From a virus, in the IMG/VR virus record IMGVR_UViG_3300017770_005808: 5,627 nucleotides of DNA, one strand, 5' to 3'. This document shows positions 1 through 5,627 of this stretch, in pieces; position 1 is the stretch's first letter; every line of letters starts with the position of its first letter. The translations under genes and the position numbers were made by a program. The notes beneath the pieces were generated by a model that was given only the letters and a program-made list of their open reading frames with translations, was not told where the DNA came from and searched no databases.

Positions 1-123
1 ATTTATTGCTTTCAAAAAACGGAACCACACTTCCGCCAATGCCCGTTTCGCCTTTATATGACCGGTTCAATTCTTCCATAGAACCGTTAAAACGATCAAA
101 CGCAAGCATTGGTACATAATGCG
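1..123. repeat. Terminal redundancy copy A, identical to 5505..5627; assembly overlap of a circular genome
   Basis: Aligned by eye, bases 1-123 (atttattgctttcaaaaaacgg...ggtacataatgcg) match 5505-5627 exactly. This gives a unit length of 5504 nt. The capsid ORF reads in frame through the junction. Confidence 0.95.
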
Positions 124-420: not shown

Positions 421-1200
421 TTACTTATATTGCGCATCTACCGCGCGACTGAACTGGCGCTGAAATCGCCATTCATCTAATTTTTGACCAACGTTTTTTC
501 CAAAATCAAAAAGCTTTGTTCCAGAATATTGCGATATACCGCCCGCTATAGCGCCAATATCCGCATCCTCTGGGTTCCAAGGTACAAAAATTGTATTACC
601 CATTGGTGTTACCAACGGATACAAACCTGCAGTCAACGTGTTATTAACATAACTTCCGTCGCCTGTTTTAGTCACTCGCACATCAACAGGTGTTTGTGCT
701 AAAACTTCGTCTAACGTTTTATCTGTACCAGGCAATAACATCGCTTCGCTTATTTTGCCTGTTGTATTTCCGACATTTGCACCAGCAGTTAAAACATTTC
801 CGGTAATAGTTGCACCGCCGGGCGTACCGGCTTGTTTTGACAATATTCCCGTATAACGCGTATTAGCCAAAGTGTTGCCAATATCCGCTTTCATACTTTT
901 TAAAGTCAAATCTCTTACTTGCTTGTTATATTTATCAATAGGCGCCTGCCTATATGCGTCAAATATACCCGCTGCCGCATTTCCAAACGCTGCCGCCTTT
1001 GAAATAGTCGGTAAACCTGTAAAACCTTGTCCACCAGTATTTCGCAAAACTGTTAACGGGTTAAAACCCGCACGTTGCGCCGCATTTCTCATACGTACAA
1101 ACTGGTTATCTTGATCTTTTATTGCTTGGCTTCGTTGTTGTTGCGCAGCTTTGTACGAAAACAAAGACCCAACCACCGCAGCTGCTATTTGTCCAAACAT
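421..1200 (-). CDS. VP2: DNA pilot / minor capsid protein (VP2, H-like)
   Basis: A 259-aa ORF preceded by a strong AGGAG Shine-Dalgarno (1214..1210) 9 nt before the ATG at 1200. It has a hydrophobic N-terminal helix (MFGQIAAAVVGSLFSY) and a Gln-rich stretch. It carries RNAAQRAGFNPLTVL, matching the AG(L/F)NP motif typical of gokushovirus VP2. The rest is Gly/Thr/Asn-rich. It lies directly upstream of the capsid gene. Confidence 0.85.
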   Translation of the reverse strand: MFGQIAAAVVGSLFSYKAAQQQRSQAIKDQDNQFVRMRNAAQRAGFNPLTVLRNTGGQGFTGLPTISKAAAFGNAAAGIFDAYRQAPIDKYNKQVRDLTLKSMKADIGNTLANTRYTGILSKQAGTPGGATITGNVLTAGANVGNTTGKISEAMLLPGTDKTLDEVLAQTPVDVRVTKTGDGSYVNNTLTAGLYPLVTPMGNTIFVPWNPEDADIGAIAGGISQYSGTKLFDFGKNVGQKLDEWRFQRQFSRAVDAQYK

Positions 1201-1220
1201 TATTTTTTACTCCTAATAAT

Positions 1221-1289
1221 TTCAATTACTGCTAAAACCGCAACAATGGCGCTTACAAATCCCCACAAAAAATATGGATTTGTTAACAT
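1221..1289 (-). CDS. Candidate 22-aa hydrophobic micropeptide (MLTNPYFLWGFVSAIVAVLASN)
   Basis: Hand translation. The ATG at 1289..1287 overlaps the TGA of the preceding 32-aa ORF (TGATG). The peptide is almost entirely hydrophobic. The stop TGA is at 1223..1221, just before the VP2 Shine-Dalgarno. There is only a weak GGA upstream. It is too short for the ORF track. Confidence 0.3.
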
Positions 1290-1387
1290 CACCATTTCCA
1301 ATCGAAATATATTGGACCGTATAACGCTACACTAATTACGGCTCCCATTACTGCTCCATGCAGCACGTTTACAAACGTTTTATTCAT
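1289..1387 (-). CDS. Candidate 32-aa single-pass membrane peptide (MNKTFVNVLHGAVMGAVISVALYGPIYFDWKW)
   Basis: Hand translation. The ATG at 1387..1385 overlaps the end of the 64-aa ORF (ATGAATAA). A GGAG sits at 1399..1396, 8 nt upstream. The layout is a short polar N-terminus, a hydrophobic core of about 20 residues, and an aromatic Trp-rich C-terminus. Confidence 0.4.
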   Translation of the reverse strand: MNKTFVNVLHGAVMGAVISVALYGPIYFDWKW

Positions 1388-1574
1388 CTCTTGCACTCCG
1401 CTCTAATTTAGACAAAATAAGATCTGCAAGAACACATAAAATCGTAATCGCAGCAGTTTCCACTTGCACCGCTTGCTCTTGTGCGATACCAACTCCAACC
1501 AACGTTCCGCCAATCATTGAACCTGCTCGGCGTATCAATGGTTTCAAAAATTCTCTAGCTATAATATTTATCAA
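1380..1574 (-). CDS. Small hydrophobic protein with a charged C-terminus (holin-like architecture); start uncertain
   Basis: A 64-aa ORF in the track. Its start is TTG (1574..1572) with a poor Shine-Dalgarno. An alternative ATG at 1517..1515 would give 45 aa (MIGGTLVG...). There are two hydrophobic stretches, GSMIGGTLVGVGIA and AAITILCVLADLIL, followed by the charged tail KLERSARDE. Confidence 0.5.
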   Translation of the reverse strand: MINIIAREFLKPLIRRAGSMIGGTLVGVGIAQEQAVQVETAAITILCVLADLILSKLERSARDE

Positions 1575-1608
1575 TTGGTCTCACATTGGAACTTTAACCA
1601 ACTTGTTC

Positions 1609-1626
1609 GCATAATATATATTATGC
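1609..1626. repeat. Perfect 18-nt AT-rich palindrome GCATAATATATATTATGC in the largest intergenic region
   Basis: All 9 positions are self-complementary when checked base by base. It sits inside the 151-nt non-coding gap between the Arg-rich ORF (ends 1726) and the 64-aa ORF (starts 1574). CAAC-containing sequence flanks it on both sides. Its function (origin, operator or promoter) is unknown. Confidence 0.6.
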
Positions 1627-1725
1627 AGTAGTTGTTTTTTTCCAACCCCTTACGTTTTTTGTTCTTGCTGTGTTATTGTTACAAACTTGTTTCGTACCTT
1701 GTCAAGCTTTGACACTAACTTTTTT

Positions 1726-2046
1726 TTAACACCACGGAATAAATTCTTTTCGACCTCTTCCACCGCCGTGCGGTTTATTGTTTTTTGGTCTATCCTTGCA
1801 CCTTACCCGCAGCCTTACGTCTGACCGTTCTTTTTTCACGGGGGTTTCTCGCTGGCGCTGTCTTCCGGTAGGGGAGGGTGCTGCAGCAACGCTTTCTACC
1901 AATACTGGTATACGTTTTAATTGTTGCCGCTGCCTTACTGTTGCTGCAACTTTTCTAACAACTCGCGTTGTACGTCTTCGTATAACTCCAGACGTTTGAT
2001 TTCTCCGTGTTCCACGTAATGATTTATTTCGTCTACGCTTCGCCAT
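1726..2046 (-). CDS. Arginine-rich small DNA-binding/packaging protein (J / VP8-like in function), overprinted on the VP4 3' end
   Basis: A 106-aa ORF that is extremely basic (runs of R/K such as MAKRRRNKSLRGTRRN, IRRRTTRVVRK, GGGRGRK). A GAGGA Shine-Dalgarno at 2057..2053 lies 6 nt before its only ATG (2046..2044). It overlaps VP4 codons by 112 nt in a different frame. Small highly basic DNA-condensing proteins are a hallmark of Microviridae. Confidence 0.7.
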   Translation of the reverse strand: MAKRRRNKSLRGTRRNQTSGVIRRRTTRVVRKVAATVRQRQQLKRIPVLVESVAAAPSPTGRQRQRETPVKKERSDVRLRVRCKDRPKNNKPHGGGRGRKEFIPWC

Positions 2047-3069: not shown

Positions 3070-3654
3070 TTAGTCGACTTCATCGACATAAATGGGACGT
3101 CCTATTTTCGGCTCGTCTTTACGAAGCCGCCAGTTTTTCAACTGCCAATGTGCTGGGTCGTAGAAATTCCAATCGCCACCCCAATCTAATTTAAGATTGC
3201 GTTTTCTTGCAATTTCTTTACCTATCGACCCAACAATGTCCCATTCTTTTTTGCTAAGGTTCCAATATCTTGTGGCGTGAACTATATCCACTGCACAACC
3301 ATATTGATGCGGTGAATTACCGCCCTTAGCTTTACTTCTCCCTTGCGCGTGTAATTCGTTTTGACGTTGCTCATCGCGCAACATTTCAAACGCTAAAACA
3401 GGTATGTTTCGCGCGCTGCATGCTTTAAGCATTGCTTTCCAAAAATCGACAATCTCAGGGTGTACACCCTCATATTGCGTTTCTGTTTGTTTTTGAATTA
3501 CATCTTTTCGCTTCAGGGCTTTTGCGTCTGCTAGTGCATACGCTGCTACCGTATAATCTTTATGAACAGGCTCATCCCTAAACCACGCCTGAACGCGATC
3601 TAGGAACTTCACCCATTTCATAAACTTATTCGGCGGTCGTTGCTCCTGTTGCAT
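3070..3654 (-). CDS. Zinc D,D- / L-Ala-D-Glu-type peptidase, family M15 (VanY-like phage endolysin fold); peptidoglycan hydrolase
   Basis: A 194-aa ORF. The signature is LRDEQRQNELHAQGRSKAKGGNSPHQYGCAVDIVH ... LKLDWGGDWNFYDPAHWQL. That is the SxHxxGxAxD (H-x6-D) plus WGGDW...D..H pattern of M15 peptidases. Putative Zn ligands are H116 (3309..3307), D123 (3288..3286) and H169 (3150..3148). An AGAGGG Shine-Dalgarno at 3665..3660 lies 5 nt before the ATG at 3654. It overlaps the upstream ORF by 29 nt. There is no N-terminal hydrophobic segment. Confidence 0.9.
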   Translation of the reverse strand: MQQEQRPPNKFMKWVKFLDRVQAWFRDEPVHKDYTVAAYALADAKALKRKDVIQKQTETQYEGVHPEIVDFWKAMLKACSARNIPVLAFEMLRDEQRQNELHAQGRSKAKGGNSPHQYGCAVDIVHATRYWNLSKKEWDIVGSIGKEIARKRNLKLDWGGDWNFYDPAHWQLKNWRLRKDEPKIGRPIYVDEVD

Positions 3655-4174
3655 CGTCGCCCTCTAATTGCTCACTCTGTGCCTCCGGCACTGGCTGTTG
3701 CTCCTGTTCGCTACTTTGCTGAGAAACTTGTTCCCTCAACTTTGCCAGTTCTGCGCGCTCGTCTGCCATCGCAGCGTCGCGTCGCTCTTCGTTTAATTTT
3801 ACCCACTTCATCATCCGCGCAAACTCATCGTTATTGCGTACCCGTGGCTCTATATTAACATAACTGTCTTTCTCAACTGGCGCCATACGTTGGTCAACGT
3901 CTCGGATGTTCACAAACACCGATGCGCCCTTTTCCGCTTTAATTTGCACCCAACTGCTTCCGACTGCTGTATATTCTACAGTCATTTTATCGTCCGCTGC
4001 GCCCTGCAATACGGCTTCTTTCATATCCGCATTGTCCGCCGCCCAAACTTCAATTTTTGAGTTTGCGTTTACTTGAAAAGTAACGCGCTTTGCTTTGCTA
4101 CTTTCAAATGCAATTACCGCTCCAGCTTTTACTTGTTGCCATTCTGTCAATGACCCATTCTTAAAGTGCTTCAT
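3626..4174 (-). CDS. Hypothetical 182-aa structural-module protein (beta-rich N-terminal half, helical middle, acidic Gln/Glu-rich tail); possible scaffold or spike/decoration protein
   Basis: A long ORF with a GGAG Shine-Dalgarno (4187..4184) 9 nt before the ATG at 4174, directly downstream of the capsid gene. The N-terminal ~95 aa show an alternating hydrophobic/polar pattern (VIAFESSKAKRVTFQVNANSKIEVWAA..., MTVEYTAVGSSWVQIKAEKGASVFVNI). A predicted helix follows (EFARMMKWVKLNEERRDAAMADERAELAKLREQ), then the tail SSEQEQQPVPEAQSEQLEGDD. I recognise no family signature. Confidence 0.75.
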   Translation of the reverse strand: MKHFKNGSLTEWQQVKAGAVIAFESSKAKRVTFQVNANSKIEVWAADNADMKEAVLQGAADDKMTVEYTAVGSSWVQIKAEKGASVFVNIRDVDQRMAPVEKDSYVNIEPRVRNNDEFARMMKWVKLNEERRDAAMADERAELAKLREQVSQQSSEQEQQPVPEAQSEQLEGDDATGATTAE

Positions 4175-4233: not shown

Positions 4234-5627
4234 TTACTTGACGATGCGAGCGCTATCGACCAAGTCTGTGATTTCCTGATAATCAGACGTTGCGTCTGTT
4301 TCCAACAACCGCTGTCCAAATACCGTATTGCCCGTAATTTCGATGTCTGAAATACACGTTATCTCAAAAGCGTCTGCGACCTGATCGCTAAACACTTTTT
4401 TATGCAAACCTGACACCAAATAAAAATCTTCCGACAAAGTCGGGTCAGTTTGTTCTACGGTCCAAATTTTTGCACGATCTGAATCGAACGCATCGCTTGC
4501 TGGTCGGTAATATTTACCACCCACATTTACCATATCGCGCTGATATTCATGATTTAACGGTGCATATCCAAACGTACCGTTTGGTGTACTGTGGTTAACG
4601 TCCAGGTGGTCATTTTTTACAACTGACACTTGTTCTGGATCCAAAACATCACGCAAATAATTTGGTAAATTATCTGGATTTGTTTCGTACAAGAAATAAT
4701 CTTTCTTGCGTTCCCACATCTGTTCCGGAACAATTTCCGCCGTAATCATTATTACACCGCCTGTATTCATTTGCGGTGTTCGAATTGAACATTCCACACT
4801 AGCAAATCCATTTGTAACACTTGTATCCAAATTTGCAGCGTCTGTTGCATAACGTTGATTATATCCAATCATTGTTGATTTTTTACTCAACAAAATTGGT
4901 TGCTTCATTGTTTCTTCTGGAACGCGAATGCCTTCCATCAACATGTCAATGATGTGCTCGTCATCAATCCCATCATACATGCTACGCACTTTAGCAAACG
5001 CTGCTGTTTTCTTTGCTTGATCAATATCCGCTAATGACATCGTAGCGTTGCCGCCAGACGTCAATTCCGCGTATAAATTATTCCAAACATGTTCTCCATC
5101 AGCATTTGTTGTTGTCGCGGGACTAGTCGTATCAGATGGCGTTCTATGACCATTATAATACAAAACATTCTGCGACACCAATGGCGCTTCAAACGTCAAA
5201 CCGTTTAACGCTACTTCGCCATCAATCAACTTTTGGTCAAAATCTGGAACAATATGATTATTGTCCAACGACCAAAACGCTTCTGCCAAATTATGATCAT
5301 AAGCATTGCGCAACGGCAGCGAAGCTGACCGAGCTTTACGTCTATGATTAACAATTGCATTATAAGCTTCAACAACTATACTGTTATTTTGAACTGAGTT
5401 AGTATGAAGCCCCATCATTTGGTAAAACGTTCCTCGACCATACGCATTAGACGTATCAAACGAACTGCTATTAGCAACTGTACCTACAGCGCTACCATCC
5501 CAATATTTATTGCTTTCAAAAAACGGAACCACACTTCCGCCAATGCCCGTTTCGCCTTTATATGACCGGTTCAATTCTTCCATAGAACCGTTAAAACGAT
5601 CAAACGCAAGCATTGGTACATAATGCG
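4234..5627 (-). CDS. VP1: Major capsid protein (F / VP1 jelly-roll), 5'-truncated by the window end; full gene = 349..1 joined to 5504..4234 on the circle, 539 aa
   Basis: The largest ORF in the window. The frame stays open past the track start (5613) to the window edge and continues in copy A at 1..349. The C-terminal half contains FGYAPLNHEYQRDMVNVGGKYYR, resembling the conserved FGYQ.R..EYR segment of gokushovirus VP1. Size and position are typical of Microviridae capsid genes. The stop TAA is at 4236..4234. Confidence 0.95.
   Translation of the reverse strand, partial: HYVPMLAFDRFNGSMEELNRSYKGETGIGGSVVPFFESNKYWDGSAVGTVANSSSFDTSNAYGRGTFYQMMGLHTNSVQNNSIVVEAYNAIVNHRRKARSASLPLRNAYDHNLAEAFWSLDNNHIVPDFDQKLIDGEVALNGLTFEAPLVSQNVLYYNGHRTPSDTTSPATTTNADGEHVWNNLYAELTSGGNATMSLADIDQAKKTAAFAKVRSMYDGIDDEHIIDMLMEGIRVPEETMKQPILLSKKSTMIGYNQRYATDAANLDTSVTNGFASVECSIRTPQMNTGGVIMITAEIVPEQMWERKKDYFLYETNPDNLPNYLRDVLDPEQVSVVKNDHLDVNHSTPNGTFGYAPLNHEYQRDMVNVGGKYYRPASDAFDSDRAKIWTVEQTDPTLSEDFYLVSGLHKKVFSDQVADAFEITCISDIEITGNTVFGQRLLETDATSDYQEITDLVDSARIVK
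5505..5627. repeat. Terminal redundancy copy B, identical to 1..123
   Basis: See copy A. The match is exact over 123 nt up to the window end. Confidence 0.95.

What the first reader, a model, noticed from the sequence alone, without database searches (positions are those of the whole stretch)
1221..1574. Three consecutive miniature hydrophobic ORFs (64, 32, 22 aa) with overlapping stop/start codons: candidate holin-type or membrane-remodelling module
The 354 nt between the Arg-rich gene region and VP2 would be an unusually long non-coding stretch for a microvirus. Hand translation shows a chain of small minus-strand ORFs instead. The 64-aa ORF has two hydrophobic segments and a highly charged C-terminal tail, which is a holin-like layout. 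Its last codons overlap the ATG of a 32-aa single-TM peptide (ATGAATAA) that has a GGAG 8 nt upstream. The TGA of that peptide overlaps the ATG of a 22-aa hydrophobic peptide (TGATG). These are the only obviously membrane-directed small ORFs in the genome, and the M15 peptidase lacks an export signal. A split holin/antiholin or holin plus accessory system is therefore a reasonable hypothesis. Alternatives are superinfection exclusion peptides, membrane anchors for replication or assembly, or no function for the two smallest.
Basis: partly seen in the sequence, partly recalled or inferred. Interest (0 to 1): 0.7.

Follow-up and report, generated by a model that had tools for sequence, protein, structure and literature searches.

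The report
Candidate holin module in a microvirus
Three tiny, overlapping membrane-protein genes in this small marine ssDNA phage are real and conserved, and the largest is probably the missing "hole-former" that lets the phage's cell-wall-cutting enzyme escape and burst the host, a role never described for this virus family.

Summary
The window is a complete circular microvirus genome (5504 nt plus a 123-nt overlap, Occultatumvirinae-like). The three minus-strand mini-ORFs exist and are chained by overlapping stop/start codons, with corrections. ORF A (1380-1574, 64 aa) starts at TTG. ORF B is 1289-1387 (32 aa). ORF C is 29 aa, not 22 (1200-1289), and its stop overlaps the pilot-gene ATG.

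All three are under strong purifying selection. ORF A belongs to an unnamed family of at least 105 sequence clusters, all found so far in microviruses or microvirus prophages. It is a 60-70 aa two-helix hairpin (N-in/C-in), with a short Gly-rich first helix, an invariant acidic residue in the second, and a basic tail.

ORF A co-occurs with the signal-less M15 peptidase: 50 genomes have both, 0 have ORF A alone, 6 have neither. It has consistent but sub-threshold similarity to Pfam Phage_holin_10. ORF B is a GxxxG single-pass peptide that follows ORF A in the marine lineages. ORF C is sporadic.

Best reading: ORF A is the holin for the M15 endolysin, ORF B is its timing partner, and ORF C is an accessory. 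Function is inferred, not shown. No searched paper or GenBank record calls any of them a holin.

The parts
1380..1574 (-). ORF A: a 64-aa two-helix membrane hairpin with a TTG start. Candidate holin. Family motif P12-L-x-R-R16-x-G18, and Asp51 inside the second helix.
   Evidence: ORF and overlaps. Start position homologous to an ATG in relatives. pN/pS about 0-0.07. 105 cluster representatives by HMMER. AlphaFold helices 2-27 and 32-63, pLDDT 74.7. Charge and topology statistics. PF23987 hit of 17.3 bits (gathering score 27).
1289..1387 (-). ORF B: a 32-aa single-pass peptide (inferred N-in/C-out) with a G-x-x-x-G ... L-[FY]-x-[PD] core. Its ATG lies inside the last codons of ORF A (ATGAATAA), with GGAG 8 nt upstream.
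   Evidence: pN/pS about 0-0.06. Homologous peptides in the same slot across marine lineages. 50 of 64 ORF A-positive loci have such a peptide overlapping the ORF A stop.
1200..1289 (-). ORF C: a 29-aa single-pass peptide (inferred N-out/C-in, RSKK tail). Its start overlaps the ORF B stop (TGATG) and its stop overlaps the pilot ATG (TAATG). It contains the AGGAG Shine-Dalgarno sequence of the pilot gene.
   Evidence: Present in the window, L006/L026, L007, L009/L028, L015, L051 and L059 only. Versus L051/L059: 76% nt identity, pS 0.81-0.86, pN 0.076.
421..1200 (-). DNA pilot protein (VP2-like, 259 aa). It is the downstream end of the translationally coupled chain. Context only, not part of the proposed lysis function.
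   Evidence: weak match to the pilot PHROG. Syntenic with the annotated DNA pilot protein of CRPss-154 and the Flyfo microviruses.
3070..3654 (-). M15 family metallopeptidase (194 aa), the proposed endolysin partner. It carries an SxHxxGxAxD-type motif (SPHQYGCAVD) and has no N-terminal hydrophobic segment.
   Evidence: Peptidase_M15_4 at 5.4e-10 and VanY. Endolysin PHROG 465 at 3e-24. Hydropathy of the N-terminus here and in 5 relatives.
1575..1725 (-). Conserved non-coding leader upstream of ORF A. It has an 18-bp perfect palindrome GCATAATATATATTATGC (1609-1626) and a TTGGAA-16-TAATAT arrangement. Candidate promoter/operator, or possibly the origin.
   Evidence: Sequence. Alignment with relatives including CRPss-152. 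The consensus promoter scan did not report it on the minus strand (8 of 12 matches).

Best explanation
ORFs A, B and C are three real genes for membrane miniproteins. They are translated as a coupled chain that runs on into the pilot gene.

ORF A inserts into the inner membrane as a helical hairpin, with both ends in the cytoplasm. It accumulates during late infection and then permeabilises the membrane. This releases the cytoplasmic, signal-less M15 peptidase to cut peptidoglycan cross-links and lyse the cell. In other words, ORF A is the holin of a holin-endolysin system in an ssDNA microvirus.

ORF B, a GxxxG single-pass peptide made from an overlapping start, most likely packs against ORF A's glycine-rich first helix. 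It would tune when or how large the holes form, acting as a co-holin or antiholin in the way Gp5 acts on Gp4 in mycobacteriophage Ms6.

ORF C is an accessory single-pass peptide of opposite orientation. It is present only in some lineages. It may modulate the same process or do something unrelated at the membrane.

Shown here: the genes exist, are under purifying selection, are chained by overlaps, have the stated predicted architecture, and co-occur with M15.
Inferred: membrane insertion, hole formation, A-B interaction, and dependence of the peptidase on ORF A.
For: (1) All three ORFs are coding. pN/pS is about 0-0.07 for A and B and about 0.09 for C at deep divergence. The overlapping junctions are conserved.

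(2) ORF A founds a family of 105 cluster representatives, 60-70 aa, matched end to end. R16 and G18 are invariant, and P12, G29, D51 and L52 are nearly so.

(3) The family has a holin-like anatomy. The N-terminus is net positive in 101/106 members, the loop is net negative or neutral in 106/106, and the C-tail is net positive in 98/106. TM1 is 15 aa and 56% Gly/Ala/Ser/Thr; TM2 is 20 aa and 36%. An acidic residue sits in TM2 in 106/106. AlphaFold predicts a two-helix hairpin.

(4) The M15 peptidase has no N-terminal hydrophobic segment in this genome or in 5 relatives, so it needs a membrane lesion.

(5) Co-occurrence among near-complete genomes of this capsid family: A+/M15+ 50, A+/M15- 0, A-/M15+ 4, A-/M15- 6 (Fisher p = 4e-6, uncorrected). 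One of the four A-/M15+ cases is a contig-end artefact. The other three carry a different small TM ORF in the same region. Peptidase-less relatives still have the pilot gene but no ORF A.

(6) The only Pfam family hit by the window protein and its close relatives is Phage_holin_10 (E = 0.001-0.03), spanning the whole 52-position profile. Across the wider family, 20/106 members hit it, the best at 3.3e-6. In phage Pam3 that family sits next to a lytic enzyme with the same Peptidase_M15_4 domain.

(7) An ORF B-type GxxxG peptide overlaps the ORF A stop in 50/64 loci. This parallels the Ms6 Gp4/Gp5 pair described in PMC6116114.

(8) All family members whose context could be read lie in microvirus genomes or microvirus prophages that carry M15.
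Against: There is no functional evidence of any kind.

The Pfam match is below the gathering score (17.3 against 27 bits). Profile-profile comparison with the Pam3 gp28 family gives only 12% probability. A reciprocal HMM test with reversed and shuffled controls is marginal. Pam3 gp28 is itself only a putative holin.

ORF A's weak, Gly-rich TM1 resembles pinholins, which normally pair with SAR endolysins. This endolysin has no SAR segment.

ORF A is about 1.5 kb from the peptidase gene and abuts the pilot gene. The peptidase-less genomes represent only about two lineages, and these are the most divergent ones (35-44% capsid identity). The co-occurrence could therefore be phylogenetic inertia.

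The window's own C-tail has net charge 0. No spanin-like gene was found. TM calls rest on hydropathy scales and AlphaFold, not on a dedicated predictor.
Confidence: 0.55

Rival explanations
1. ORFs A and B are membrane accessories of the DNA pilot protein or of assembly. They might, for example, help insert or chaperone the pilot protein, or anchor replication or assembly at the inner membrane. This would explain why they always sit directly upstream of the pilot gene and are translationally coupled to it.
For: ORF A (or A-B, or A-B-C) invariably abuts the pilot gene in Roseobacter, Rhizobium, Flyfo and tortoise microviruses and in prophages, often with stop/start overlap. ORF A is not adjacent to the peptidase gene.
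Against: Six related genomes keep a recognisable pilot gene but lack ORF A, and these are exactly the genomes that lack M15. In M15-positive genomes without ORF A, a different small TM ORF fills the slot. That pattern is typical of holin replacement rather than of a dedicated chaperone. The hairpin with a basic tail and an acidic residue in TM2 has no known counterpart among microvirus assembly proteins (from my own knowledge).
Confidence: 0.15
2. The peptides, ORF C especially, are superinfection-exclusion or host-takeover membrane proteins that block entry of competing phages or alter host envelope physiology. They would not be lysis proteins.
For: ORF C has the patchy distribution of an accessory gene. 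It appears in several lineages whose neighbouring genes are much more divergent. Some members of this phage group are prophages (PMC11499846). Other small ORFs are inserted in this same region in relatives.
Against: ORF A is close to a core gene (50 of 54 M15-positive genomes) and ORF B is nearly fixed in the marine lineages, which is unusual for exclusion genes. PADLOC gives no match. This idea explains neither the link to M15 nor how the signal-less peptidase reaches the wall.
Confidence: 0.12
3. One of the peptides is a single-gene lysis protein of the phiX174 E or levivirus Sgl type. It would block a step of cell-wall synthesis and act independently of the M15 peptidase, whose role would then lie elsewhere, for example in entry.
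For: Microviruses are the classic single-gene-lysis phages (Roux et al. 2012, PMC3394797). ORFs B and C are single-TM peptides of Sgl-like size.
Against: Carrying an endolysin-type peptidase makes a second lysis route unnecessary. ORF A's presence tracks the peptidase. The peptides are separate genes, not embedded in another gene as E is. There is no sequence similarity to E or to any named family.
Confidence: 0.07
4. The two smallest ORFs, or all three, are chance open frames in a non-coding spacer.
For: They are very short. Of the 114 stop-to-stop fragments of 25-80 aa in the six frames of this genome, 3-11% reach the same peak hydrophobicity.
Against: Synonymous change far exceeds non-synonymous change in exactly these frames. 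Start and stop overlaps are conserved. The protein families are recoverable by HMM in dozens of genomes.
Confidence: 0.02

Closest known systems
Pfam PF23987 Phage_holin_10 (Pam3 gp28 family; putative holin of Pseudanabaena myophage Pam3 and Bosea prophages)
   Same: Both are small proteins with a two-helix hairpin followed by a basic RRK-type stretch. PF23987 is the only Pfam family the window protein and its close relatives hit, and the match covers the whole profile. In Pam3 it sits beside a Peptidase_M15_4 lytic enzyme, the same enzyme family as here. Many members occur in Alphaproteobacteria.
   Different: Scores are below the gathering threshold, hhalign probability is 12%, and the reciprocal HMM test is marginal. 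The conserved motifs differ: PLxRRxG and D51 here, against EQFWSxxRT and RRKAGLVASAAALPEV there. gp28 has a C-terminal extension of about 35 aa. gp28 is itself only annotated as a holin, not tested.
Mycobacteriophage Ms6 Gp4 + Gp5 (two holin-like proteins)
   Same: A small two-TM protein whose first TM is weakly hydrophobic and SAR-like is followed immediately by a gene for a one-TM protein. The two interact and together set the timing of lysis (PMC6116114). ORF A and ORF B have the same layout.
   Different: No sequence similarity was detected. Ms6 is a dsDNA phage of a mycolata host, and its endolysin is exported with a chaperone. Here the endolysin appears cytoplasmic, ORF B is only about 30 aa, and a third peptide may follow.
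Phage 21 S21-68 pinholin (class II holin)
   Same: Similar size (68 aa), two TM domains, a Gly/Ala-rich weak TMD1, polar residues in TMD2 and a charged C-tail (from my own knowledge; hydropathy compared).
   Different: Pinholins make small channels and work with SAR endolysins. The M15 peptidase here has no SAR or signal segment. No dual-start motif is evident in the window, which has a single TTG start.
phiX174 protein E (microvirus single-gene lysis)
   Same: Both are small membrane proteins of a microvirus connected with lysis.
   Different: E is a one-TM inhibitor of MraY, encoded inside gene D, and phiX174 has no endolysin (PMC3394797). Here there are separate genes, a hairpin protein and an M15 peptidase.
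Hypothetical proteins of cultured Occultatumvirinae (CRPss151_03, CRPss251_02/03, RHph_Y2 EVB83_006, RHph_TM24 EVB33_003)
   Same: These are true homologues of ORF A (E = 1e-10 to 4e-27), in the same position. CRPss251_03 is an ORF B homologue.
   Different: They are annotated only as hypothetical. ORF B is not annotated at all in CRPss-151, -152 and -155. None of these isolates has ORF C.

Membership tests
Pfam PF23987 Phage_holin_10 | Whole-protein score at or above the curated gathering score (27 bits) | tested here: not met
   The window ORF A scores 17.3 bits, E = 0.0048. Relatives score 14.7-19.5 bits. 20/106 family members reach E <= 0.01, the best at 3.3e-6.
Pfam PF23987 Phage_holin_10 | Profile-profile homology to bona fide members (Pam3 gp28 relatives) | tested here: inconclusive
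   hhalign gives probability 12%, E = 0.0024, over 59 columns in the expected register. In the reciprocal HMM test, 8/106 members score >= 10 bits, against 0/106 reversed and 2/530 shuffled controls; the reverse direction shows nothing.
Holin, class II (operational definition) | Small protein with two transmembrane helices, with N and C termini in the cytoplasm | tested here: met
   By prediction only. Hydropathy, an AlphaFold hairpin with helices 2-27 and 32-63, and charge distribution across 106 members. No dedicated TM predictor was available.
Holin, class II (operational definition) | Hydrophilic, charged, usually basic C-terminal tail | tested here: met
   The tail KLERSARDE is highly charged but has net charge 0 in the window. 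The family mean is +2.6, and the tail is positive in 98/106 members.
Holin, class II (operational definition) | Genetic association with an endolysin that lacks its own export signal | tested here: met
   Co-occurrence counts are 50/0/4/6. M15 has no hydrophobic N-terminus. The two genes are not adjacent (1.5 kb apart in a 5.5-kb genome).
Holin, class II (operational definition) | Forms lethal membrane lesions at a programmed time; complements a holin-null phage | not testable with these tools
   Requires expression and complementation experiments.
Pinholin / SAR-endolysin system | Weakly hydrophobic, Gly/Ala-rich TMD1 able to leave the membrane | tested here: inconclusive
   The composition fits: TM1 is 15 aa, 56% G/A/S/T, mean KD 1.34 against 1.60 for TM2 (p = 1e-10). 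Exit from the membrane cannot be tested here.
Pinholin / SAR-endolysin system | Partner endolysin carries an N-terminal signal-anchor-release segment | tested here: not met
   Maximum KD15 within the first 45 residues of M15 is 0.25 in the window and <= 1.04 in five relatives.
Spanins (i-/o-/u-spanin), considered for ORFs B and C | Lipobox cysteine (o- and u-spanin) or a sizeable periplasmic domain after an N-terminal TM (i-spanin) | tested here: not met
   ORFs B and C contain no Cys and are 32 and 29 aa long, with at most 6 residues outside the TM segment.
phiX174 E-type single-gene lysis protein | One N-terminal TM protein encoded within another gene, in a genome without an endolysin | tested here: not met
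   These are separate, non-embedded genes, and an M15 peptidase is present. There is no similarity to named families.

The most novel reading that the evidence does not exclude
A, B and C form a multi-component miniprotein holin. The pinholin-like hairpin (A) would be converted into a large-hole former by one or two single-pass partners of opposite orientation: B is N-in/C-out with a glycine zipper, and C is N-out/C-in. The large holes would release a non-SAR endolysin. The invariant cytoplasmic PLxRRxG motif would act as a docking or trigger site. This would be a holin-endolysin system assembled from 29-64-aa parts in a 5.5-kb ssDNA genome, and it would be the general lysis route of Occultatumvirinae-type microviruses.
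Probability: 0.15. Interest if true: 0.75.

Novelty: new variant of a known kind. Interest (0 to 1): 0.6.

Why it matters
Microviruses are the textbook case of lysis by a single small protein (phiX174 E). How the far more numerous non-phiX microviruses lyse their hosts is largely unknown. M15 peptidases were proposed as microvirus endolysins in 2012, but no partner that would let a cytoplasmic enzyme cross the membrane has been described.

This work gives a concrete, widely conserved and currently unannotated candidate. It is present in cultured Roseobacter and Rhizobium microviruses and in prophages. That makes the question directly testable with isolates that already exist.

It would also add a very small holin family, and possibly a two- or three-part one. 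It shows that genome annotation of these abundant marine phages systematically misses 29-32-aa genes.

Tried and rejected
- PHROGs, NCBIfam and PADLOC gave no meaningful match for A, B or C.
- A PDB sequence search gave only insignificant matches to GPCR TM1-TM2 hairpins and Rossmann-fold N-termini.
- A Foldseek search of the AlphaFold model against BFVD gave nothing significant. I did not run the pdb library, because a 64-aa hairpin matches non-specifically.
- Rfam found no RNA family in the window.
- Pam3 gp28 alone against the ORF A profile was not significant. Pam3 gp27 against the window peptidase showed no pairwise similarity by BLASTP, although both carry Peptidase_M15_4.
- A search for IMG/VR relatives of the peptidase-less CRPss-154 found none. 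The peptidase-less set therefore had to come from GenBank Ciona-associated microviruses.
- My first narrow ORF B HMM wrongly suggested that ORF B was missing from many genomes. A positional search showed a divergent homologue in the same slot.
- A 24-codon ORF whose stop overlaps the ORF A TTG was considered as a fourth link or leader peptide. I rejected it because its amino-acid sequence changes non-conservatively and its ATG is not conserved.
- Three hydrophobic TTG-initiated minus-strand ORFs inside the capsid gene were judged spurious and not pursued.
- I initially mis-stated the unit genome length as 5507 nt. The correct value is 5504. Only internal coordinate labels were affected.
Full report
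WHAT THE WINDOW IS

The first 123 bases repeat at the end, so the window is one circular genome of 5504 nt. All genes lie on the minus strand. In order they are:
- capsid protein (539 aa, wrapping around the ends);
- a 182-aa protein (3626-4174);
- an M15 metallopeptidase (3070-3654);
- the replication initiator (1935-2957);
- an Arg-rich 106-aa protein (1726-2046);
- a 151-nt non-coding stretch;
- the three small ORFs;
- a 259-aa pilot-type protein (421-1200).

The nearest cultured relatives are the Roseobacter phages CRPss-151, -152, -153 and -155, at about 71% nucleotide identity over about 45% of the genome. These are assigned to the proposed subfamily Occultatumvirinae (PMC11499846).

CHECKING THE OBSERVATION

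The three ORFs and their junctions are real. ORF A runs 1380-1574, ORF B 1289-1387 and ORF C 1200-1289. The junctions are ATGAATAA (A/B, with GGAG 8 nt upstream of the ORF B ATG) and TGATG (B/C).

Three details were wrong in the finding.
- ORF A begins at a TTG. Its only ATG is codon 20. The full 64-codon reading is correct, because relatives carry an ATG at exactly the TTG position and residues 1-19 are conserved.
- ORF C is 29 aa, not 22. It ends at 1200, where its TAA overlaps the pilot-gene ATG (TAATG). The Shine-Dalgarno sequence of the pilot gene (AGGAG) lies inside ORF C.
- The Arg-rich gene and the pilot gene are separated by 525 nt, of which 151 nt are conserved non-coding sequence.

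ARE THEY GENES?

Yes, all three.
- Among close relatives from IMG/VR, ORF A shows 2-15 synonymous and 0-2 non-synonymous differences per pair.
- ORF B shows up to 11.5 synonymous and at most 3.5 non-synonymous differences per pair.
- ORF C has too few changes among the closest relatives to judge. Against L051 and L059, whose capsids are only about 65% identical, it is 76% identical in nucleotides, with pS 0.81-0.86 and pN 0.076. Both overlapping junctions are kept.

HOW FAR EACH GENE EXTENDS

Conservation is nested.

ORF A is the broadest.
- A profile search of 1.84 billion representative proteins found 105 clusters. Nearly all are 60-70 aa and matched end to end.
- R16 and G18 are invariant. 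P12, G29, D51 and L52 are nearly invariant.
- Every member whose context I could read lies in a microvirus-sized contig, in a microvirus prophage with the order ORF A, pilot, capsid, a gene of about 200 aa, M15, Rep, or in deposited microviruses from Roseobacter, Rhizobium, tortoise and bat samples.
- In GenBank these proteins are labelled 'hypothetical protein'.

ORF B at first seemed restricted to a subgroup. A positional search then showed that almost every marine lineage has a small single-pass peptide overlapping the ORF A stop by 4-14 nt, in 50 of 64 ORF A-positive loci.
- These peptides align on a G-x-x-x-G ... L-[FY]-x-[PD] core.
- Some carry an N-terminal soluble extension of about 50 aa with no signal sequence, which places the N-terminus in the cytoplasm.
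- The Rhizobium, Flyfo, Tortoise 72 and prophage lineages lack ORF B.

ORF C occurs only in the window, four close relatives, and L051/L059.

ANATOMY OF ORF A

- Hydropathy shows a short, weak first hydrophobic stretch (residues 17-31, AGSMIGGTLVGVGIA) and a stronger second one (36-55).
- AlphaFold, run on a 17-sequence alignment, predicts helices at 2-27 and 32-63 with a turn at 28-31 (mean pLDDT 74.7).
- Across 106 family members, the N-terminal segment is net positive in 101, the loop is net negative or neutral in all 106, and the C-tail is net positive in 98.
- TM1 is 15 aa and 56% Gly/Ala/Ser/Thr. TM2 is 20 aa and 36%.
- An acidic residue occupies position 51 inside TM2 in all 106.

By the positive-inside rule this is an N-in/C-in hairpin. 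That is the layout of class II holins, and the weak TM1 recalls pinholins and Ms6 Gp4 (PMC6116114). The hydropathy scales are quoted from memory, and no dedicated TM predictor was available.

LINK TO THE PEPTIDASE

- The M15 protein matches Peptidase_M15_4 and VanY, and endolysin PHROGs.
- It has the SxHxxGxAxD-type motif (SPHQYGCAVD, read).
- It has no N-terminal hydrophobic segment here or in five relatives. It should therefore stay in the cytoplasm unless the membrane is breached.

Among near-complete genomes of this capsid family, 50 have both ORF A and M15, none has ORF A without M15, and six have neither. The six are CRPss-154 and five Ciona-associated genomes. Four have M15 without an ORF A hit. 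One of these is cut at the contig end. The other three have an unrelated small TM ORF in the same region, two of them directly upstream of the pilot gene. This looks like non-orthologous replacement.

The peptidase-less genomes keep the pilot gene, which argues against ORF A being a pilot accessory.

Caveat: the six double-negatives come from about two lineages, and these are the most divergent in the set. The Fisher p of 4e-6 therefore overstates the evidence.

SIMILARITY TO A KNOWN HOLIN FAMILY

The only Pfam family hit by the window protein and its close relatives is PF23987, Phage_holin_10 (Pam3 gp28 family).
- The window scores 17.3 bits, E = 0.0048. Relatives reach E = 0.001-0.03. The match always spans nearly the whole 52-position profile.
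- In the wider family, 20 of 106 members hit it, the best at 3.3e-6; three other families were hit by one or two members each.

In phage Pam3, gp28 lies next to gp27, a lytic enzyme with a PG_binding_1 domain plus the same Peptidase_M15_4 domain.

However, all scores for the window protein are below the gathering threshold. hhalign between the two family alignments gives only 12% probability. A reciprocal HMM test with reversed and shuffled controls is marginal. The conserved motifs differ. gp28 itself is only a 'putative' holin. I therefore do not place ORF A in that family. The resemblance is a supporting hint.

MOST LIKELY MECHANISM

ORF A is translated inefficiently, from a TTG start with a weak Shine-Dalgarno sequence. 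It accumulates in the inner membrane as a hairpin and eventually forms lesions that release the M15 endolysin.

ORF B is made by coupled translation. It probably packs through its GxxxG face against ORF A's glycine-rich TM1 and adjusts the timing or size of the holes, as proposed for Gp5 acting on Gp4 in Ms6.

ORF C is an optional extra peptide of opposite orientation and unknown role.

The main tension is that ORF A looks like a pinholin while the endolysin is not of the SAR type. Either ORF A makes large holes despite its build, or the partner peptides matter for that step. I put the holin reading of ORF A at about 0.55. The specific role proposed for ORF B is less likely than that. The role of ORF C remains open.

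NOVELTY

- Roux et al. (2012) proposed M15 peptidases as microvirus endolysins and noted holins only in the dsDNA (pro)phages from which the gene may have come.
- The papers describing the CRPss, ICBM5 and Rhizobium microviruses never mention a holin or a transmembrane protein.
- Full-text searches combining microvirus terms with 'holin' found nothing relevant.
- The ORF A family has no significant PHROG or NCBIfam match.

Within what I could search, the module is undescribed. Holins are a known kind of protein with many unrelated families, so I rate this as a new variant of a known kind, not as categorically new.

Noticed in passing
window 1575-1725 (palindrome at 1609-1626): The 151-nt non-coding stretch upstream of ORF A is strongly conserved at the nucleotide level, even in CRPss-152. 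It contains an 18-bp perfect palindrome GCATAATATATATTATGC, a TTGGAA-16-TAATAT arrangement on the minus strand with conserved spacing, and a TTGACA near 1700-1705. It could be a promoter/operator or the replication origin. The consensus promoter scan did not report it on the minus strand.
   Followed up: partly
window 1571-1645, minus strand: A 24-codon ORF ends in a TGA that overlaps the ORF A TTG start (AATTGA). Its amino-acid sequence varies non-conservatively among relatives and its internal ATG is not conserved. It is probably not coding, but it lies in the conserved leader.
   Followed up: partly
L027 (=L005) 515-718; L030; L044; L062: Some close relatives carry an extra 50-67-aa acidic, non-hydrophobic ORF inserted between ORF A and ORF B, again with overlapping start and stop codons. 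The A-to-pilot interval appears to be a hot spot for gain and loss of miniature genes.
   Followed up: no
L033, L037, L039, L082 (ORF directly after ORF A): In these lineages the ORF B-type TM helix is fused to an N-terminal soluble domain of about 50-60 aa (DLPSDFD.KFAEQT..AY..IY motif) of unknown function.
   Followed up: partly
L113 (Tortoise microvirus 70) 4858-5091; L114 (Rattus microvirus) 4646-4834; L110 (Tortoise microvirus 38) 4602-4709: These M15-positive microviruses have no ORF A hit but carry different small hydrophobic ORFs between the Arg-rich gene and the pilot gene. The Tortoise 70 and Rattus ORFs resemble each other (LLPMLAGALGTIIFVMSP against LVLPVMAGAFGAILYIVSP). They may be non-orthologous holin replacements.
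   Followed up: partly
L024 (CRPss-154), L104-L108 (Ciona-associated Microviridae sp.): These related microviruses lack both the M15 peptidase and ORF A, so their lysis mechanism is unknown. CRPss-154 has an unannotated 34-aa ORF with a hydrophobic N-terminus at 1657-1761. The Ciona genomes have 600-950 nt of unannotated sequence between Rep and the pilot gene.
   Followed up: no
L001-L003 (CRPss-152, -155, -151) 1616-1711: The GenBank records of these cultured phages leave the 31-aa ORF B homologue unannotated. It is annotated (29 aa, hypothetical) only in CRPss-251.
   Followed up: yes
L019 7200-13700; L020-L022: Microvirus prophages of this group are integrated next to TatD DNase and metallo-beta-lactamase-fold genes in bacterial contigs. 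One of these contigs is 946 kb.
   Followed up: no
window 1-123 and 5505-5627: A 123-nt terminal direct repeat shows that the window is a circularly permuted complete genome of 5504 nt. The capsid gene spans the junction.
   Followed up: yes
window 1935-2046: The Arg-rich 106-aa ORF (1726-2046) overlaps the 3' end of the Rep gene (1935-2957) by 112 nt in a different frame. The same overlap is annotated in CRPss-151 and -152. Its C-terminus (CKDRPKNNKP...FxPWC) is conserved across very distant relatives.
   Followed up: no
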